Source: a virus (lineage: Duplodnaviria > Heunggongvirae > Uroviricota > Caudoviricetes). From it: a DNA stretch of 5,858 bases. Where the stretch lies: the IMG/VR virus record IMGVR_UViG_3300028992_000037; one strand, written 5' to 3'. The notes under the pieces are model-generated. The model saw only the letters and a program-made list of their open reading frames with translations, was not told the origin of the DNA and did no database searches. This document shows, piece after piece, positions 1 to 5,858 of the stretch (position 1 is its first letter; every line of letters starts with the position of its first letter). Made by a program: the position numbers and the translations under genes.

Positions 1-27
1 ATGCCCCTTACTGCTGCCTTTACCCAT
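1..27 (-). CDS. J: 5' end of tail tip attachment / central tail fibre protein J (partial, continues beyond the window start)
   Basis: The minus strand from 27 down to 1 reads ATG GGT AAA GGC AGC AGT AAG GGG CAT, i.e. MGKGSSKGH, which matches the N-terminus of lambda gpJ as I recall it. A GGAG Shine-Dalgarno lies 8 nt upstream (36..39). The 60-nt gap after the I stop reproduces the lambda I-J spacing as I recall it. Only 9 codons are visible, so the call rests on sequence identity and synteny. Confidence 0.6.
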
Positions 28-41
28 TCGTCACGCTCCAT

Positions 42-69
42 AAACGACAAAACCGCCCGCAGGCGGTTT
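42..69 (-). terminator. GC-rich hairpin followed by a U-run in the I-J intergenic spacer; candidate intrinsic terminator or attenuator
   Basis: Seen directly: on the minus strand AAACCGCC (69..62), loop UGCG (61..58), GGCGGUUU (57..50), followed by UGUCGUUU. This is an 8-bp stem (5 G:C pairs) with a 4-nt loop and a T-rich tail, lying between the I stop (88..90) and the J ribosome-binding site. Confidence 0.35.
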
Positions 70-87
70 CACATAAAACATTTTTCA

Positions 88-729
88 TCAGCGACCAATC
101 ACCACAACCTGACCACCATCACCTTCATCTGCTGTGCTGATCTCCTGAGATACCACCCGCGACCCCACACGCATTTCACCGTACAGAACGGGCAGGACAT
201 TGCCCTGGGCAACCATATTATCCAGTGAAGAAAAATAGGTGTTCTGTTTGCCGTTATCCGTTGTCTGTGTGCGGGGGGTTTTGGGTTTAGGGGCCAGCAT
301 CTGTGCAACACCGCCAAGCGTCATACTGGCACCGAGAGAAAACAGCAGATTACTCGCCATAATTCCTACCCCCGGCATCCATATAGCAACCGCCATAACA
401 GCCGCCCCCAGCACAGCCTGAAACACACCGCCACTTTTGGCTCCCGCCAGACGCGGCACGATATGGATCACAGCACCATTTGCCAGCGGTTCATTAAGAC
501 GGGCTGATAATTCCGTTTCACCTGTATCACGCCCGGCAATGCGTACCTGATACCAGCCGTCGCTCAGCTTCTGACGAAACGCCGGGATCTGCATGGCCAG
601 CGCCCGGATGGCTTCGGCCCCCGTTTTCACACGCAGATCGATGCGGCGGCCAAATCGTTGTAAATCCCCGTAAAGGCAGATGCGCGCCATGCCCGGTGAC
701 GCCAGAGGGAGTGTGTGCGTCGCTGCCAT
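88..729 (-). CDS. I: Tail assembly protein I (lambda gpI-like)
   Basis: 213-aa ORF starting MAATHTLPLASPGMARICLYGDLQRFGRRIDLRVKTG, which matches the lambda gpI N-terminus as I recall it. It overlaps the 3' end of K by 103 nt in another frame, the same overlap I recall for lambda K/I. It sits between K and J, has high GC, and includes a hydrophobic glycine/alanine-rich central segment. Confidence 0.9.
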   Translation of the reverse strand: MAATHTLPLASPGMARICLYGDLQRFGRRIDLRVKTGAEAIRALAMQIPAFRQKLSDGWYQVRIAGRDTGETELSARLNEPLANGAVIHIVPRLAGAKSGGVFQAVLGAAVMAVAIWMPGVGIMASNLLFSLGASMTLGGVAQMLAPKPKTPRTQTTDNGKQNTYFSSLDNMVAQGNVLPVLYGEMRVGSRVVSQEISTADEGDGGQVVVIGR

Positions 730-1370
730 TTGTCGGTATACCTCTCTCGTTTGCTCAGTTGTTCAGGAATATGGTGCAGCAGCTCGCCGTCACCACAGTA
801 AATGGCGGCATGATTCGGCACCGATGAACCAAAGCAGCACAGCAGCACATCGCCCGGTTGTGCTGATGACAACGGCACCTGATACAGCCCTGTGGCCTCC
901 AGATTATCCAGATAGAGATTCTGACCGTGACGCCACCAGTCATCCCCGCGATGAAAATCCGGCATCTCAATTCCCGCCAGATGGTAAGCGTCCCGGAACA
1001 GCGTGTAACAGTCCGTCACCCCGTGCTCAAAGCGCCGCCCGGTGAGATGCGGCACACAGCGGAATTTATGAATCGCCCCCCGGCAGACCAGCCACCACGG
1101 CAAATCACTCTGCACCTGCAGCCGCCGGTCGGCCTCACTCAGCCAGGGCAGACCACCGGGGTGGCTGTGGACCAGCGCCACAATCTCTCCCTGCATTTCT
1201 GCACTCAGCCAGTCCTCCGGCGACATCCGGAAATACGCCTCCGGCTCACCGGAGATATTCACGCAGGGAAAATATCTTTCCTCCTCCGGCGTTCTCACCA
1301 CGAAGCCGCACGACTCCGCTGGCGCACATCGCCGGGCGTGCGCCAGAATCGCTGATTCTGTCTCTGTCAT
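627..1370 (-). CDS. K: Tail tip assembly protein K (lambda gpK-like; N-terminal MPN/JAMM-type domain plus C-terminal NlpC/P60-type domain)
   Basis: 247-aa ORF beginning 5 nt after the L stop. It contains an exact JAMM motif, HSHPGGLPWLSEAD (H-x-H-x7-S-x2-D, aa 68-81), with an upstream Glu at aa 19. The C-terminal half has a Cys/His arrangement typical of NlpC/P60 (DCYTLF ... NHAAIY ... LLHHI). An alternative internal start at Met49 (1224..1226) is preceded by GGAGG and would correspond to the classical 199-aa lambda K. Confidence 0.88.
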   Translation of the reverse strand: MTETESAILAHARRCAPAESCGFVVRTPEEERYFPCVNISGEPEAYFRMSPEDWLSAEMQGEIVALVHSHPGGLPWLSEADRRLQVQSDLPWWLVCRGAIHKFRCVPHLTGRRFEHGVTDCYTLFRDAYHLAGIEMPDFHRGDDWWRHGQNLYLDNLEATGLYQVPLSSAQPGDVLLCCFGSSVPNHAAIYCGDGELLHHIPEQLSKRERYTDKWQRRTHSLWRHRAWRASAFTGIYNDLAAASICV

Positions 1371-1375
1371 GGGAT

Positions 1376-2074
1376 TTACTGCGAAAGTTTGTTAATGGAA
1401 AGGAAGCTGCCAAAGTTGCCGACATTATTGCGAAACTTACAGCCACTCAGGCATTTGCTGCATTTATCCTTCGTGATATCGGACGTCGGCTGGTCATATT
1501 CATCCGCGACCGCCGGACCGCTATAACCGCACTCATCGCCGCGATAGGTCCAGGTGCAGGTGTTGGCCAGCATGATACGTCCCGGAAAAACAGCGCCATC
1601 CGTTTCCGTCGGCGTGGACAGTACAAAAGAGGCACTGACCGCGCTCAGTTCGCTGCACTGCTCGATGCGCCAGCGGCTGATCACCTCCTGCTCCGGATCG
1701 GCTTCGCTGTTTCCGTTGACGAAGTTCACCGCATCCAGAAAGCGGGCGTAAACCTTACGCCGGACCACCGTTCCGCCGACCAGACTCTGCAGATCTTCCG
1801 CCATCCCGGTGATCATGCCGTGCAGGTTAGAGACCGTCAGTGTCGGACGGGCAGCACTGCCCTTGCCGTTCATCTCAAATCCACTCCCCTGAATGGGATA
1901 GGCCTGATACTGCCGACTCTGCCAGGTGACAGACTCACCTTTTTCGTTCTGCTCATTACAGAAAAAGTAGCGATCCCCGCCTACCTCGGTCAGGTCGATT
2001 TCCCAGAGCACCACGCTGGCCGACTGCTCCGCACGAATGCATTCATTCAGCGTTTCCTGTTGTATGTCCTGCAT
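1376..2074 (-). CDS. L: Minor tail protein L (lambda gpL-like, tail tip complex; cysteine cluster consistent with an Fe-S site)
   Basis: 232-aa ORF starting [12 protein letters not shown]...SASVVLWEIDLTEVGG, closely matching lambda gpL as I recall it, and the same length as lambda L (699 nt). Its ATG overlaps the M stop as ATGA (2072..2076). There is a C-terminal cysteine cluster (C173, C182, C205, C208, C212). Confidence 0.92.
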   Translation of the reverse strand: MQDIQQETLNECIRAEQSASVVLWEIDLTEVGGDRYFFCNEQNEKGESVTWQSRQYQAYPIQGSGFEMNGKGSAARPTLTVSNLHGMITGMAEDLQSLVGGTVVRRKVYARFLDAVNFVNGNSEADPEQEVISRWRIEQCSELSAVSASFVLSTPTETDGAVFPGRIMLANTCTWTYRGDECGYSGPAVADEYDQPTSDITKDKCSKCLSGCKFRNNVGNFGSFLSINKLSQ

Positions 2075-2412
2075 CAGATCACCACTTCGTCAAACTGACA
2101 CGAAAAATCGGTATAGGTGATATGTTCTGTCGCTGACCACGTTCGACACACCACTCTGATTTTTCTGTTAATACCCGGCGGGCGCCAAAAAAAAGATTTA
2201 TAGCCTTCATGCCGGGCTAAAAATTTTTCAAATGAATCACGTTCATTCGCCTCAACTTTGAAATCACAGGTGAAAACGCGCAGAGAATGATTAAGTCCAT
2301 TTGGACTTCGTTGCTCATAACCATCGCCAAATCTTACAGTTTTTATCGATGGTTTATTTTCTGTTTTCATTCCATCCTCTGGTAACCAGTGAAATTCTTC
2401 CGTATTAGCCAC
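2074..2412 (-). CDS. M: Minor tail protein M (gpM family, divergent from lambda gpM)
   Basis: 112-aa ORF with a GTG start that overlaps the H stop by 8 nt. The N-terminus ([28 protein letters not shown]) aligns with the lambda gpM N-terminal region (F-R-W...GM...VRFGDGY) as I recall it, and the C-terminus ends ...FDEVVI versus lambda ...FEQVVN. An alternative ATG start at 2368..2370 is preceded by GAGGA. GC content is markedly lower than in L, K and I. Confidence 0.8.
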
Positions 2413-5400
2413 TTAACATTCCCCCATCACGTCGCATATTTAACAGATTGCCCTGCACCCGCTGATCAACCATCCCCATAAGTGCTTTTATTGCCTGAGG
2501 GCCAATCTCTCCATTCTGGCCGTCATTTTGAATAGTGATTTGGTATACAGGGGCATAGGTAATATCTCCGCCTCCATTACCACTTTTACTATTAATAGCT
2601 CTGACACCAAGAGAACCATCGGAAGTTCGTGTTAATGGCATAATGGCTTCCGGACCAGCTTCACCAAAAACACCAGCCCCTCTTGCAAAAGCAAAAAATT
2701 GCGGGGAATCATAAATACCGTTCGAATACGTGTTCAATGACGGAGACTCATAAACACCGCCCTTTGCATTCGGAATAAATTTACTAATAGCACTCCCGAT
2801 AGTTCCTAAAATCCCCCCAGAAGAACTGTTACTAATGCTGTCGAAAATCCCAGTAATTGAAGCCTTTAATGCTATTCGACTAAGATCCGAAATCACGGAA
2901 GTAGCGAAAGAACGAAAATTTGCCTTGCCTGTCGTGACAAAATCACCCAACGCATCGGTCATTCCATCAAACATCTGAGTCGTGGTTGATTTTATCTGCT
3001 CACTGATATCCTTAGTGTCATCCAGCCAGTTATTGAATCCCTGGGAGGCACCACTAACCCAGTCTCCTGCCTGAATATCGAGCTGCTCGTTTTTCTGTCT
3101 GACAATTTCTTTTTCTCGTTCCAGAGCATCATTCAGAGCCTGCATTTTCTCCTGAAAAACATGATTTGACATCCCACGGGATTTATCTGCATAGTCACGT
3201 TCAAGTTGCAGACGCTGATTGTTATATTCACGTTCAATCCGCAGTAATTCCTGCTGGCGTTGCTGATTTTTATCGCCAACCCCATAACCAGCAATCTGAA
3301 TATCATACCCCTGTTGACGATTATCAATCGAAGCCTGCAATGAATCACGCCATGCAGCTATTTCGGCGGATTCCTTGATTAGCCTGTTATTTTTTTCAAT
3401 CGCAACATTTTTCTCCATCAACGCGGTTATTTCTTCCCGGTGTAAGAGAAGCGATTTCTGATCCTGGGTTAATTTCGATGACGGTCGTGACTCCAGGTCG
3501 GCAATCTGCTGACGCCACTTAACCAGTTCCTGTTCAGAGGAACTTAATTTAACGGTTAATTCAGTTTGTGAACTTAGTAACGCATTCTGTTGATTCAGAT
3601 GATCAATCATTCGTTGGGCAGCATCATCCGAATAACCTTTCGCCTTTGGTTGCTTTGGATCTTTATAACGCTCATTTATTTGAGCGATAAAATTATTATA
3701 TTCTTCCTTTGAATACTGACTCTTTAGCTTTTCCAGTTTTGCAAGTTCACTAGCTCTCTGCTGCTCCCGGGTCTGATATTGTTTTGAAAAGGCATCTGCT
3801 CTCTGTCTGAGTTCAATTCCTTCCTGTTGTCGCTTGTTGTAATCGTTTATTGATGAATTTAGGACGTCCTGAGCAATTTTTTCTGCTTGAAGTACGCCCA
3901 ATTGCTGCTTTAATCGTGCCAGCCTTTTATTTTGAGCTCCGCCATCTCCAATGCCACCTAACCCGAAAACTCCGGGTCGGGTATTTTTTTCTATTTCATC
4001 AATTTGACGGAGAACATCTGAGATTTTTTGATCAAGGGAGGCCTCACGGCCAATATCCAGCATGGAATCCCATGCCCATTTTGCGGAGTCTGCGACAGCT
4101 TTCCATGCAGTCTCAAGATAACCAAGATTTTCTTTAATCTGGTTGGTGCGCTGGATCATTGAGGATGAGTATGCTTCTGTCGCAATGCGGGCGGCCTCCT
4201 GCTGGTTCCCTTCATCCTGTAGCGCCTTAATCTGGTTATAAGTCGCAATTGTCAGAAAATGGTACTGATCATTAAGTTTTGATATGGCACTGACAGGATC
4301 CTTTGCAATTTCATTGAAGTCATTAACCAGTTGTTCGGTTGATATTCCTGTTACTTCGCTCGTTTTTACTATCGCTGTCGTCACTTGCTCCAGCGAACTG
4401 CTCGCTACCTTTCCCGAACGCACAAGCTGGTTTAATACTGCCGCCGCAGCGCCAGTTGTCGAATCAGCCGCATTCCCGGCACGTTGAGCTATATCGGCCA
4501 ATTGCCCGCTGGTTGTCCCCAACTGATTTCCGGTAAGAATAAGAGATTTATTAAATTCGTCCTGCTCCTGAGAGCCTTTATAGTAAGCCAGCCCTAAGAC
4601 GCCAACGGCTGCTGCGGCCAGGGTAAAAGGATTAATTAATCCCAGCACATAAGAACCAACACCTTTGATCGCCGGGCCAATCCCACCGAACATATCTTTT
4701 AGCTGGCCGCCCTGCTGCATTAACACCATAAAAGGCGACTGACCAGTGGACAACCCAACAACAATATCCGTCATTTGTGCAGGCAACATGCGCATAGCAA
4801 AAGCCGTTTGTTTTGCCGACATTCCGGTTTTGCTTAATTGAGATTGAGTAACCTCAAGCTCACTCCGCATAGCACGAAGTTTTCCAGAAAGTTCCTCATA
4901 CATTTCAGGAGAGAGCATCCCCTTAGCTTTTGCTTCATTGAGCTGTTTCTGTTGTTCTACCAGACGATTAAAAGCAGTTCCGACAGGGTCAAGTTGAGCA
5001 ATCAGACGTTGCAAAGCAGCAACCTGTTCATCATGCGCTTTTGCTGCTTCTCGCTCTGCCTGAGCCTCTCCGGTAAGCTCTCGCCGTGTTTCCTGTATTT
5101 TTCGGCTATAATTCTCAAACTGAGAACCATTTATTTTCCCGGATGCAAACGCAGCATTAAGTTCATCCTGCTGTTGTTCAAGATTTCTTAGCGCCGCAAC
5201 CAGAGGGTCGATCTTGTCCAGCATTCTTTGAAAGGCCTGAGCCTGCGATTCCTGCTGGGCGGCAGCAAGTTTTCCGGCCTTCTCGGCTTCTCTCTGCGCT
5301 TGCGCAACCCCGCTCAATTCCTCTGTGGTTTCATTAAGTTTACGGACAAGAAATTCATATTCTTCTTTATCAATAAGTCCTTTATCGAAAAATTTCTTTA

Positions 5401-5638
5401 ATTCAGAATAGCGTCGACCGACAGTATCAATTGCGGCACCAACTGGATCAATAGCTGCTTTTAATTTTGCGAGCGCGTTCTTCTCATCTTCTGTTGCCTT
5501 AGTCACTTTCCCTGCGCTATTTGCAGCAGTTTCCCCGGCCTGCGTCATTTTGACTAATGAGGAGGTCAGATTGTCAGCATTATTTTTTGCTCCAGTGCTA
5601 TCAATAATTATTGCGAGACGCGAGGTTTGCTCTGCCAT
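2405..5638 (-). CDS. H: Tail tape measure protein (lambda gpH family, extended to 1077 aa)
   Basis: Single 3234-nt ORF with a GGAG Shine-Dalgarno at 5648..5651, 9 nt before the ATG. It has three N-terminal repeats of about 48 aa (aa 63-110, 143-190, 216-263). A conserved hydrophobic block ([38 protein letters not shown]...[15 protein letters not shown], aa ~283-354) matches the corresponding lambda gpH segment as I recall it. A long central region is Q/E/K/R-rich and coiled-coil-like. The C-terminus (...[16 protein letters not shown]...[10 protein letters not shown]) resembles the lambda gpH C-terminus as I recall it. It sits immediately upstream of M-L-K-I-J. Confidence 0.92.
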
Positions 5639-5798
5639 TTATTAAAACTCCAGACAACAAAAAGCCCACCGAAGTGGGTTTCAGGCGACATAATAGTAGA
5701 TATAGCGATTACGAGGCCACGCAATGCTTTTCTCCAGGAGCATCATCGATTTAATTAAAGACACCTGAAGTGGTTTACTGAATTTGGCCACCTGAACA

Positions 5799-5817
5799 GA
5801 GGTGATATGCTCACCTC
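5799..5817. promoter_or_regulatory. 7-bp perfect inverted repeat (GAGGTGA / TCACCTC) with a 5-nt spacer; candidate operator or protein-binding site upstream of a plus-strand gene start
   Basis: Seen directly: GAGGTGA at 5799..5805 and TCACCTC at 5811..5817 are reverse complements. Further CACCTG/CAGGTG copies lie nearby (5762..5767, 5789..5794, 5827..5832). The repeat is 20 nt upstream of the ATG at 5838. Confidence 0.3.
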
Positions 5818-5837
5818 AGAACAACACAGGTGCCATA

Positions 5838-5858
5838 ATGAAAAAAAGAAATTTCAGC
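5838..5858 (+). CDS. Possible 5' end of a plus-strand gene of unknown function (MKKRNFS..., continues beyond the window end), divergent from the tail operon
   Basis: ATG AAA AAA AGA AAT TTC AGC runs to the window end with no stop. An AGGTG Shine-Dalgarno-like motif lies 5 nt upstream (5828..5832). The Lys/Arg-rich N-terminus is typical of a signal peptide or membrane-protein start. Only 7 codons are visible, so this is tentative. Confidence 0.25.

What the first reader, a model, noticed from the sequence alone, without database searches (positions are those of the whole stretch)
5762..5832. Cluster of CACCTG/CAGGTG motifs including a 7-bp perfect palindrome just upstream of a divergent ATG
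Within 70 bp there are CACCTG at 5762..5767 and 5789..5794, GAGGTGA/TCACCTC as an inverted repeat at 5799..5817, and CAGGTG at 5827..5832, the last overlapping the putative Shine-Dalgarno of the plus-strand ATG at 5838. This density of one hexamer in both orientations in a non-coding spacer looks like repeated binding sites for a dimeric regulator controlling the divergent gene and possibly readthrough into H. A weak sigma70-like promoter (TTGGCC, 16-nt spacer, TATGCT at 5806..5811) overlaps the palindrome.
Basis: seen in the sequence. Interest (0 to 1): 0.35.

Follow-up and report, generated by a model that had tools for sequence, protein, structure and literature searches.

The report
Left end of an IS911-like insertion sequence
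The motif cluster is not a phage regulatory site but the left end of a common, already catalogued mobile element (ISEc52, close to IS911) that has jumped into a prophage tail-gene cluster; the repeated motifs belong to its terminal repeat, its own weak promoter, its ribosome-binding site and a conserved stem-loop fold.

Summary
The motifs are at the stated coordinates and are far denser than chance. The interpretation as phage operator sites is wrong. Homology to lambdoid prophages stops exactly at 5765. From 5766 (TGAAGTGG...) to the window end, the sequence is 100% identical to the left end of ISEc52, an IS3-family element close to IS911 that occurs in most E. coli genomes.

- **CACCTG at 5762-5767:** a junction artefact, made of CACC from the prophage and TG from the IS tip.
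- **CACCTG at 5789-5794:** lies in the 36-bp left terminal inverted repeat, overlapping the GGCCACC box shared with the right end.
- **Palindrome at 5799-5817:** brackets the -10 of the element's own weak promoter pIRL (TTGGCC, 16 nt, TGaTATGCT), whose key bases are conserved in 103 relatives.
- **CAGGTG at 5827-5832:** the Shine-Dalgarno sequence of orfA, which starts at ATG 5838.

In those relatives the two CACCT/AGGTG pairs stay complementary through compensatory and wobble changes. This suggests an RNA fold that hides the ribosome-binding site in transcripts entering from outside, while the pIRL transcript would start just 3' of it. That function is inferred, and the folding-energy controls were inconclusive. 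The element is known and the interest is low.

The parts
5639..5765 (-). Prophage intergenic DNA between an upstream small tail-region gene and the tape-measure gene (ATG at 5638 on the - strand). The IS insertion point lies after 5765.
   Evidence: Positions 5640-5765 are 100% identical to many E. coli prophages, and the match stops at 5765. The empty site in L001 reads ...AAAGACACC|ATCACATC.
5762..5767 (+). First CACCTG: a chimeric motif made of prophage CACC plus the IS tip TG, so a junction artefact.
5766..5858 (+). Left end of an ISEc52 (IS911-like, IS3 family) insertion sequence. The window ends 93 nt into the element.
   Evidence: It is 100% identical to copies annotated 'IS3-like element ISEc52 family transposase', and 4023 of 5426 E. 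coli genomes have a match. A full 1250-bp copy is at L002 1801-3050.
5766..5801 (+). Left terminal inverted repeat IRL (IS nt 1-36). It has the TG tip, a candidate -10 for the circle-junction promoter (TTTACT, 5774-5779), and the inner box TGGCCACC (5785-5792) shared with the right repeat.
   Evidence: IRL and IRR are compared in a full copy. The 36-bp repeats and OrfAB binding to their subterminal part are described in PMC2909936. The -10 in IRL and -35 in IRR for the junction promoter are described in PMC9330008.
5784..5789 (+). -35 hexamer TTGGCC of the resident promoter pIRL.
   Evidence: Read directly. It is near-invariant in 103 relatives.
5787..5794 (+). 5' arm of helix A (IS 22-29, GCCACCTG). 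It contains the second CACCTG and is an anti-Shine-Dalgarno-like sequence.
   Evidence: Predicted in the MFE fold and by RNAalifold.
5799..5817 (+). Hairpin B: GAGGTGA (5799-5805), loop TATGC, TCACCTC (5811-5817).
   Evidence: Perfect inverted repeat. 94% of cells are paired in 103 relatives. The closing pair is A-T, C-G, T-A or T.G. RNAalifold predicts its core.
5803..5811 (+). Extended -10 element of pIRL: TGaTATGCT. The hexamer 5806-5811 sits in the loop of hairpin B, and the inferred transcription start is near 5818.
   Evidence: Column counts in 103 relatives are TG 102/103, T 102, A 103, T 95, n, n, T 102. The start site is inferred from spacing and was not measured.
5827..5834 (+). 3' arm of helix A (IS 62-69, CAGGTGCC). 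It contains the orfA Shine-Dalgarno AGGTG (5828-5832).
5838..5858 (+). Start of orfA (MKKRNFS...), the HTH/leucine-zipper N-terminal part shared by OrfA and the transposase OrfAB.
   Evidence: The identical full copy was translated. Pfam gives HTH_Tnp_1 for OrfA and rve for OrfB.

Best explanation
Positions 5766-5858 are the first 93 nt of an ISEc52 element. ISEc52 belongs to the IS3 family, is about 93% identical to IS911 in this stretch, and has the same architecture. It has inserted into the intergenic region 127 bp upstream of the tape-measure gene of a lambda-like prophage, in the opposite orientation to the tail genes.

The 'motif cluster' is the overlap of four functions at the IS left end:
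1. The 36-bp terminal inverted repeat. Its inner part (TGGCCACC...AGAG) is the binding site of the element's own transposase OrfAB.
2. The weak resident promoter pIRL. It has -35 TTGGCC and an extended -10 TGaTATGCT, and is inferred to start transcription near 5818.
3. The orfA ribosome-binding site AGGTG and the ATG.
4. A conserved two-helix fold made of two anti-SD-like CACCT and two SD-like AGGTG segments. Helix A pairs 5787-5794 with 5827-5834. Hairpin B pairs 5799-5805 with 5811-5817.

Proposed mechanism, inferred and not shown: any RNA that enters the element from outside contains all four segments and folds so that the orfA SD is paired. This probably also applies to RNA from the transient circle-junction promoter, whose start I infer to be near IS nt 21. 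The pIRL transcript starts just 3' of hairpin B and lacks both anti-SD segments. Transposase translation would therefore be insulated from host or phage read-through, as shown for IS10 and IS50.

The first CACCTG is a by-product of where the element landed.
For: Identity as an IS end:
- Prophage homology breaks at 5765, and an empty site exists.
- 5766-5858 is 100% identical to annotated ISEc52 copies.
- A full copy is 1250 bp with TG...CA tips, imperfect terminal repeats and a 3-bp duplication GTT.
- OrfA is HTH_Tnp_1, OrfB is rve, and there is an A6G slippery site.
- IS911 literature describes 36-bp repeats, OrfAB binding to the subterminal repeat, pIRL (PMC2909936), and a -10 in IRL with a -35 in IRR for the junction promoter (PMC9330008).

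Promoter:
- TG-n-TAtnnT and TTGGCC are near-invariant in 103 distinct relatives, while the middle of the hexamer varies freely.

Fold:
- The MFE of IS 1-93 gives exactly helix A around hairpin B, at -23.6 kcal/mol with z = -2.64.
- RNAalifold predicts the same two helices de novo on 103 sequences.
- 87.8% of cells are paired, against 28-49% when partners are slid.
- Pair IS29-62 is G-C in 76 sequences, A-U in 16 and G.U in 1.
- Cells changed on both sides number 18, against 6.3 +/- 1.9 in shuffles (0 of 500 shuffles reached 18).
- The A-U state appears in at least 4 separate places on an orfA tree.
- C23.C68 becomes U-A in 3 lineages.
- The hairpin closing pair is A-T 89, C-G 4, T-A 4 and T.G 4, with 2 unpaired.
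- G.U cells outnumber A.C cells, 27 to 12 in hairpin B and 26 to 12 in helix A.
- The right repeat lacks AGGTG and CACCTC, so these belong to expression and not to transposase recognition.
- For this copy, the cost of opening the SD-AUG region is about 8 kcal/mol in read-through RNA and about 3.6 kcal/mol in RNA starting at IS 53.
Against: The functional step (translation block of read-through RNA) is untested, and the thermodynamic controls do not support it strongly.
- Across 130 relatives the opening cost is only 4.05 kcal/mol for long RNA and 1.85 kcal/mol for short RNA. Shuffling the 5' 52 nt gives as much or more SD occlusion, with z from -1.2 to +1.1.
- Predicted folds change with the 3' boundary. 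In IS911 nt 1-130 the SD pairs with coding nt 93-95 and 121-123 in both long and short RNAs.
- If I place its -10 correctly, the transcript of the strong junction promoter would start near IS 21 and contain the inhibitory arm. That is awkward for a promoter thought to boost transposase.
- Most core positions of both helices are invariant and also carry other constraints (transposase site, extended -10, SD), so they say nothing about pairing.
- Seven sequences have an A.C mismatch at 29-62.
- The pIRL start site is inferred from hexamer spacing only.
- I could not read the primary IS911 papers.
Confidence: 0.6

Rival explanations
1. DNA-level operator. The inverted repeats (the GAGGTGA/TCACCTC palindrome over the -10, and CACCTG/CAGGTG) are binding sites for the element's own dimeric HTH-leucine-zipper proteins (OrfA or OrfAB), which autoregulate pIRL. 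This is analogous to IS2 OrfA repressing its extended -10 promoter. It is the first reader's idea transferred from a phage regulator to the IS proteins.
For: - OrfAB[1-149] binds as a dimer to the subterminal part of the IS911 repeats, which includes 5785-5801 (PMC2909936).
- In IS2, OrfA binds next to the extended -10 promoter at the inner edge of IRL (PMC3299598).
- The palindrome is centred on the -10.
- Symmetric co-variation of half-sites is also expected for a dimeric binding site.
Against: - The right repeat, bound by the same protein, has no AGGTG or CACCTC.
- Arm spacing is not fixed: the loop is 4, 5 or 6 nt, and the distance between the outer arms varies by up to 4 nt.
- One-sided changes are biased to G.U on the sense strand (27 against 12 and 26 against 12 cells). 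This matters for RNA and not for duplex DNA.
- The innermost palindrome position changes A-T to C-G, T-A or T.G while the flanking arm stays invariant.
- The outer pair 29-62 lies about 33 nt apart, which is far for a single dimer.
Confidence: 0.2
2. No dedicated function for the complementarity. The repeats are a by-product of overlapping, independently constrained signals: the transposase box GGCCACC, the extended -10 TG, and the SD AGGTG, which is by nature complementary to CACCT. The apparent covariation would reflect shared ancestry.
For: - Most helix positions never vary and each has another known role.
- Shuffled 5' regions occlude the SD as well as the real one does.
- The shuffle control ignores phylogeny, as the tool itself warns.
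- A.C mismatches at 29-62 are tolerated in several lineages.
Against: - The 3' arm of hairpin B (TCACCTC, between the -10 and the inferred start) has no promoter or binding role, yet it is 90-96% conserved and complementary.
- Position 29 is not conserved between the left and right repeats, so it is free of the transposase constraint. It still switches together with 62 in at least 4 places on the tree.
- Pairs 23-68 and 40-46 also show compensatory changes.
- Slid-partner controls drop to 28-49% paired.
Confidence: 0.17
3. A phage regulatory spacer: repeated operator sites for a prophage-encoded dimeric regulator controlling a divergent phage gene and read-through into gene H.
For: Only the local appearance: a motif cluster in a non-coding stretch between divergent ORFs.
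Against: - Related prophages lack 5766 onwards altogether and continue with different sequence.
- The sequence belongs to an IS found at thousands of unrelated chromosomal and plasmid sites.
- The 'divergent gene' is the IS orfA.
Confidence: 0.01

Closest known systems
IS911 / ISEc52 (IS3 family, IS3 group) left end: IRL, pIRL, orfA start
   Same: - The sequence is identical to ISEc52 copies. It differs from the IS911-type copies of Shigella flexneri at 7 of the 75 positions through the ATG: IS nt 9-11 (TTT for CAC) and 69-72 (CATA for TCCA).
- It has the TG tip, 36-bp imperfect repeats and the inner GGCCACC box shared by both ends.
- The weak promoter lies partly inside IRL.
- OrfA has an HTH, there is an A6G frameshift into a DDE (rve) OrfB, the element is 1250 bp, and it makes a 3-bp duplication.
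   Different: Nothing in kind. This particular insertion site, in a prophage tail intergenic region, was not found in any of 5426 complete E. coli genomes.
IS10 / IS50 'fold-back' protection from external transcription (own knowledge: Davis, Simons and Kleckner 1985; Krebs and Reznikoff 1986; Schulz and Reznikoff 1991)
   Same: An inverted repeat near the left end whose distal arm covers the transposase translation start. The resident promoter lies between the arms, so only transcripts from outside can form the inhibitory hairpin.
   Different: - Different IS families and no sequence relation.
- Here there are two nested helices built from a duplicated SD/anti-SD pentamer.
- The 5' arm lies inside the transposase-binding terminal repeat.
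- The effect on translation is not demonstrated.
- A second, transient promoter (the circle junction) would produce RNA that includes the inhibitory arm.
IS200 tnpA 5'UTR stem-loop that sequesters the Shine-Dalgarno (PMC4513863)
   Same: A conserved stem-loop in the transposase leader that pairs the SD with an upstream anti-SD. In IS200 it was shown experimentally to block 30S binding.
   Different: - In IS200 the structure is present in the element's own mRNA and represses it constitutively. Here the resident transcript is predicted to lack it.
- IS200 has in addition a terminator hairpin and an antisense sRNA. None was found here, and there is no Rfam match.
IS2 PIRL (extended -10 promoter at the inner edge of IRL) with an OrfA operator (PMC3299598)
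   Same: An IS3-family element with a weak extended -10 promoter just inside or next to IRL, and a stronger junction promoter formed from a -35 in IRR and a -10 in IRL.
   Different: - IS2 OrfA binds a defined AT-rich site upstream of the promoter.
- No equivalent binding is known to me for IS911-type OrfA.
- The palindrome here is GC-rich and SD-like.

Membership tests
IS3-family insertion sequence (IS911/ISEc52 type), left end | Abrupt loss of homology to the uninterrupted host or prophage locus at the element tip | tested here: met
   The prophage match ends at 5765. The empty site in L001 continues ...GACACC|ATCACA.
IS3-family insertion sequence (IS911/ISEc52 type), left end | 5'-TG tip and imperfect terminal inverted repeats matching the other end | tested here: met
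   TGAAGTGG is at 5766. In the identical full copy L002 the two ends pair over 27 nt at 78%, and further to about 36 nt. The right end of this particular copy lies outside the window.
IS3-family insertion sequence (IS911/ISEc52 type), left end | orfA (HTH) followed by a -1 frameshift into orfB with a DDE (rve) domain | tested here: met
   The window holds only 7 codons. In the identical copy, OrfA matches PF01527 (6e-14), OrfB matches PF00665 (1e-31), and the slippery site A AAA AAG is present.
IS3-family insertion sequence (IS911/ISEc52 type), left end | 3-4 bp target-site duplication flanking the element | not testable with these tools
   The right junction of this copy is outside the window. 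The L002 copy has GTT on both sides. For this copy the expected duplication is ACC.
IS3-family insertion sequence (IS911/ISEc52 type), left end | Multicopy, dispersed occurrence at unrelated sites | tested here: met
   There are 7730 places in 4023 of 5426 E. coli genomes and 3597 plasmid records in many genera.
Fold-back protection of transposase translation (IS10/IS50 type) | Inverted repeat whose 3' arm covers the SD or start codon of the transposase gene | tested here: met
   Helix A pairs 5787-5794 with 5827-5834, where the SD is 5828-5832.
Fold-back protection of transposase translation (IS10/IS50 type) | Resident promoter starts between the arms, so the element's own mRNA lacks the 5' arm | tested here: inconclusive
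   The conserved extended -10 at 5803-5811 implies a start near 5818, 3' of both anti-SD segments. The start site was not measured and I could not read the primary mapping papers.
Fold-back protection of transposase translation (IS10/IS50 type) | Pairing maintained in evolution by compensatory changes | tested here: met
   Pairs 29-62, 23-68 and 40-46 show double changes in several lineages, and wobble changes outnumber A.C mismatches.
Fold-back protection of transposase translation (IS10/IS50 type) | Read-through transcripts are translated less than resident transcripts | not testable with these tools
   Energy estimates favour it for this copy (8 against 3.6 kcal/mol), but they are not better than shuffled controls across relatives and depend on the 3' boundary.
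Operator array for a dimeric DNA-binding regulator | Same half-site repeated at fixed spacing and phase in duplex DNA | tested here: not met
   One 'site' is a junction chimera. The hairpin loop is 4-6 nt and the outer-arm distance varies by up to 4 nt among relatives.
Operator array for a dimeric DNA-binding regulator | If bound by the transposase, the motif should also be present at the right end | tested here: not met
   IRR carries GGCCACCGAGTTAGAGTT, with no AGGTG or CACCTC.

The most novel reading that the evidence does not exclude
The leader of IS911-group elements may carry a conserved RNA element that, as far as I could check, has not been described: there is no Rfam family, and I found no mention in the open-access papers I could search. 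It would be two nested helices built from a duplicated anti-SD/SD pentamer (CACCU, AGGUG, CACCU, AGGUG), with the -10 of the resident promoter in the loop of the inner hairpin and the 5' arm inside the transposase-binding repeat. It would gate orfA translation by transcript origin. RNA from the resident promoter would be open. RNA from read-through, and from the circle-junction promoter, would be closed, or opened only under some condition such as transposase binding or co-transcriptional kinetics. That would add a post-transcriptional layer to the well-studied pjunc feedback loop.
Probability: 0.3. Interest if true: 0.45.

Novelty: already known. Interest (0 to 1): 0.18.

Why it matters
For annotating this window, the point is practical. 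The 'regulatory spacer' is an IS insertion that splits a prophage tail operon just upstream of the tape-measure gene. Late transcription must cross 1.25 kb of IS in antisense to reach H, which may make the prophage defective. The 'divergent gene' is a transposase gene.

For IS biology, the element and its promoter logic are textbook material. The only part that could add something is the conserved SD/anti-SD fold. If it works as proposed, it would extend the IS10/IS50 insulation principle to the large IS3 family. It would also raise the question of how the junction-promoter transcript, which should contain the inhibitory arm, is translated.

Tried and rejected
- **Phage operator reading:** rejected after the homology break and the IS identity.
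- **Consensus promoter scan:** it found no site at its 9-of-12 threshold. I kept the promoter on the strength of conservation instead.
- **Rfam scan of 5600-5858 at E up to 10:** only chance-level hits.
- **Close relatives:** the genome contigs set and the first viral scan were useless for covariation because IS nt 12-57 are almost invariant. I reached informative diversity only with a consensus OrfA query and a metagenome scan.
- **Same prophage-IS junction elsewhere:** absent from 5426 E. coli genomes and from the 80 viral loci examined.
- **Thermodynamic test of SD occlusion against shuffled 5' regions:** no excess. Longer 3' context changes the predicted fold. I therefore do not use energies as support beyond this one copy.
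- **Upstream ORF from ATG 5807-5809 behind GAGG:** rejected because that ATG is not conserved; relatives have TATCAT, TATAAT and similar hexamers.
- **Antisense-strand RNA structure:** disfavoured because wobble changes are G.U on the sense strand.
- **Primary IS911 papers and the 1998 IS review:** not held in the library. What I say about their content, including that pIRL lies partly in IRL and the IS10/IS50 fold-back precedent, rests on my own knowledge plus secondary open-access sources.

Full report
**Observation.** The sequence features are exactly as described.
- CACCTG is at 5762-5767 and 5789-5794, and its complement CAGGTG is at 5827-5832.
- A perfect 7-nt inverted repeat, GAGGTGA at 5799-5805 and TCACCTC at 5811-5817, is separated by 5 nt.
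- TTGGCC at 5784-5789, a 16-nt spacer and TATGCT at 5806-5811 are present, and an ATG is at 5838.

The cluster is not a chance event. Three hexamers within 71 bp occurred in 0.05% of 2000 dinucleotide-preserving shuffles of the window. The pentamer common to all the motifs (CACCT/AGGTG) occurs 5 times in 5700-5858 against 0.22 expected (0 of 5000 shuffles).

**What the DNA is.** The rest of the window carries lambda-like tail genes on the minus strand. They are I (88-729), K (627-1370), L (1376-2074), M (2074-2412) and the tape-measure gene H (2405-5638) (Pfam; RefSeq annotation of a relative).

A megablast of 5640-5858 against 5426 complete E. coli genomes gave thousands of 100% matches that all stop at query base 126, which is window 5765. 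No record covered both halves. In an uninterrupted prophage the sequence reads ...TTAATTAAAGACACC|ATCACATCTCTG....

The other half, 5766-5858, is 100% identical to sequences found in 4023 of the 5426 genomes and on many plasmids, annotated 'IS3-like element ISEc52 family transposase'. A full copy in E. coli Nissle (L002 1801-3050) has these features:
- It is 1250 bp long.
- It begins TGAAGTGG and ends CCACTTCA.
- It has imperfect terminal inverted repeats and is flanked by a 3-bp duplication, GTT.
- It encodes a 100-aa OrfA beginning MKKRNFSAEF (Pfam HTH_Tnp_1), an A AAA AAG slippery site, and an OrfB with an rve/DDE domain.

The IS911-type copies in Shigella flexneri differ from the window at only 7 of the 75 positions through the ATG. 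So the finding lies on the left end of an ISEc52/IS911-type element inserted 127 bp upstream of the tape-measure ATG, pointing away from it.

**Assignment of the four motifs.** I number the element from 5766 as IS nt 1.
1. CACCTG at 5762-5767 is prophage CACC plus the IS tip TG, so it is an accident of the insertion site.
2. CACCTG at 5789-5794 (IS 24-29) lies inside the 36-bp left repeat. It overlaps TGGCCACC (IS 20-27), one of the two blocks shared with the right repeat (TGAAGTGGTCAACAAAAACTGGCCACCGAGTTAGAGTT). For IS911, a dimer of the truncated transposase OrfAB[1-149] binds this subterminal part of the repeats, leaving the tip free (PMC2909936).
4. CAGGTG (IS 62-67) holds the orfA Shine-Dalgarno AGGTG, 5 nt before the ATG.

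**The promoter.** The consensus scanner did not call it, since it scores 8 of 12. In an alignment of 103 distinct left ends from relatives, however, the column counts are:
- TG 102/103 each.
- Any base at the next position.
- T 102, A 103 and T 95.
- Two free positions, then T 102.
- A near-invariant TTGGCC, 16 nt upstream in this copy.

This is the signature of a functional extended -10 promoter. It fits the description of the weak IS911 promoter pIRL as lying partly inside IRL (own knowledge; pIRL is named in PMC2909936). A start site about 7 nt after the hexamer would be near IS 53 (window about 5818); this is inferred and not measured. The stronger junction promoter of IS911-type circles uses a -35 in IRR and a -10 in IRL (PMC9330008). 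By spacing, that is TTGACC, then ACTTCA, a 3-bp spacer and TGAAGTGG, then TTTACT (IS 9-14). I infer its start to be near IS 21.

**Why the same pentamer four times.** CACCT is the complement of the SD-like AGGTG. Folding IS 1-93 as RNA gives one dominant architecture. Helix A pairs IS 17-29 with 62-74, covering the SD and part of the AUG. It encloses hairpin B, which pairs IS 34-40 with 46-52. The MFE is -23.6 kcal/mol and z = -2.64.

To test whether this is more than a folding artefact, I collected left ends of relatives from genomes, plasmids, viral contigs and metagenomes. Close relatives were uninformative because IS nt 12-57 are almost invariant, more so than the coding sequence. Elements with 60-85% OrfA identity keep the same architecture with informative differences.

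On the 103-sequence alignment (A4):
- RNAalifold predicts the same two helices de novo.
- 87.8% of cells form standard pairs, against 28-49% when the 3' partners are slid by 1-3 columns.
- Pair IS29-62 is G-C in 76 sequences, A-U in 16, G.U in 1 and A.C in 7.
- Cells changed on both sides number 18, against 6.3 +/- 1.9 in column shuffles (0 of 500).
- On a neighbour-joining tree of orfA, the A-U state turns up in at least four separate places.
- In three lineages the C23.C68 mismatch becomes U-A, extending the helix outward.
- In one group the helix is lengthened to a 9-bp perfect CACCTAATT/AATTAGGTG.
- The closing pair of hairpin B is A-T (89), C-G (4), T-A (4) or T.G (4), with only 2 unpaired, and the loop length is 4-6 nt.
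- One-sided changes are mostly G.U on the sense strand, 27 against 12 A.C cells in hairpin B and 26 against 12 in the core of helix A.
- Two degenerate remnants (L086, L088) have lost the linker, so that both helices fuse into one long perfect hairpin.
- The right repeat carries neither AGGTG nor CACCTC.

The variable arm spacing, the sense-strand wobble bias and the absence from the right end favour a sense-strand RNA structure over a duplex DNA operator.

**Proposed mechanism and its weak points.** The arrangement matches the 'fold-back' insulation shown for IS10 and IS50 (own knowledge). It also resembles the SD-sequestering stem-loop of IS200 (PMC4513863). RNA that enters from outside carries both anti-SD segments and can pair the SD. 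The pIRL transcript would begin immediately 3' of hairpin B and lack them. For this copy, the computed cost of opening the SD-AUG region is about 8 kcal/mol in read-through RNA and about 3.6 kcal/mol in RNA starting at IS 53.

The controls do not let me claim more.
- Across 130 relatives the averages are 4.05 and 1.85 kcal/mol, and shuffling the 5' 52 nt occludes the SD as much or more.
- With more 3' sequence, the IS911 SD is predicted to pair with coding nt 93-95 and 121-123, whatever the 5' end.
- The junction-promoter transcript, by my placement, would include the inhibitory arm.
- Most helix positions are invariant and have other jobs.

I therefore put the identity of the region as an IS left end at near certainty. 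I put the conserved pairing as probable. I put the translational insulation function at about 0.6 overall for the combined statement.

**Rivals.** A DNA operator for the element's own OrfA or OrfAB, as in IS2 (PMC3299598), cannot be excluded for the palindrome over the -10; I give it 0.2. A 'no dedicated function' reading, in which the complementarity is a by-product of overlapping constraints and shared ancestry, gets about 0.17. The original phage-operator reading is refuted.

**Novelty and interest.** The element, its terminal repeat, its promoter logic and its orfA start are known, and ISEc52 and IS911 are catalogued. No Rfam family matches the leader. I found no description of this fold in the papers I could search, but I could not read the primary IS911 literature. 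The finding as given is ordinary and well explained. The possible RNA element is a modest lead for IS specialists.

Noticed in passing
window 5660-5685 (minus strand): A terminator-like hairpin, CCCACTTCGGTGGG followed by CTTTTTGTTG, sits on the tail-gene strand only about 25 nt upstream of the tape-measure ATG. Its sequence AAAGCCCACCGAAGTGGGTT is 75% like the junction AAAGACACCTGAAGTGGTTT, 96 bp away (D1). IS911 is known to favour targets resembling its own ends (own knowledge), so this could have attracted the insertion, or it could be coincidence.
   Followed up: no
window 519-2272: CACCTG/CAGGTG is also over-represented in the prophage coding part: 7 copies there and 10 in the whole window, against 2.4 expected for the window (0 of 200 shuffles reached 10). 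This includes a tandem CAGGTGCAGGTG at 1551-1562 inside the tail L gene.
   Followed up: no
window 1-2000 versus 2000-5858: There is a sharp composition change: about 58% G+C over the I-K-L genes and about 43-47% over M, the tape-measure gene and the intergenic region. This suggests a mosaic joint within the tail module.
   Followed up: no
window 5765/5766: This prophage-IS junction is absent from all 5426 complete E. coli genomes searched, although both halves are common. It was also not seen in 80 IMG/VR loci carrying the IS. The insertion is therefore strain-specific or recent. It separates the tape-measure gene from the upstream tail genes by 1.25 kb of antisense IS.
   Followed up: partly
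L086 301-398 (E. coli plasmid p214_4_132) and L088 301-379 (K. pneumoniae hvKp plasmids): These remnant IS left ends have lost the 9-nt linker between hairpin B and the SD arm. CACCTGAACAGAGGT...ACCTCTGTTCAGGTG therefore forms one long near-perfect hairpin. This looks like quasi-palindrome 'correction' by template switching, or like a distinct IS type.
   Followed up: no
L007 329-458 (IS911 nt 54-64 and 120-129): In IS911, the leader stretch GAACAACACAGG is predicted to pair with orfA codons about 16-19 (CUGGUUGUUG). This would sequester the SD independently of the 5' end. In ISEc52 one base differs (GUCGUUG) and the pairing is weaker.
   Followed up: no
window 5799-5809: GAGGTGATATG places a strong SD-like GAGG 4 nt before an ATG (5807-5809), in a frame different from orfA. 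The ATG is not conserved in relatives, whose hexamers are TATCAT, TATAAT, TAAGAT and similar, so it is probably not used.
   Followed up: partly
L003-L082, IS nt 12-57: Across elements whose OrfA differs by up to 17%, the non-coding stretch ACTGAATTTGGCCACCTGAACAGAGGTGATATGCTCACCTCAGAACA is virtually invariant, while the IS tip (nt 3, 9-11) and the SD-ATG spacer vary. The cis region is more constrained than the protein.
   Followed up: yes
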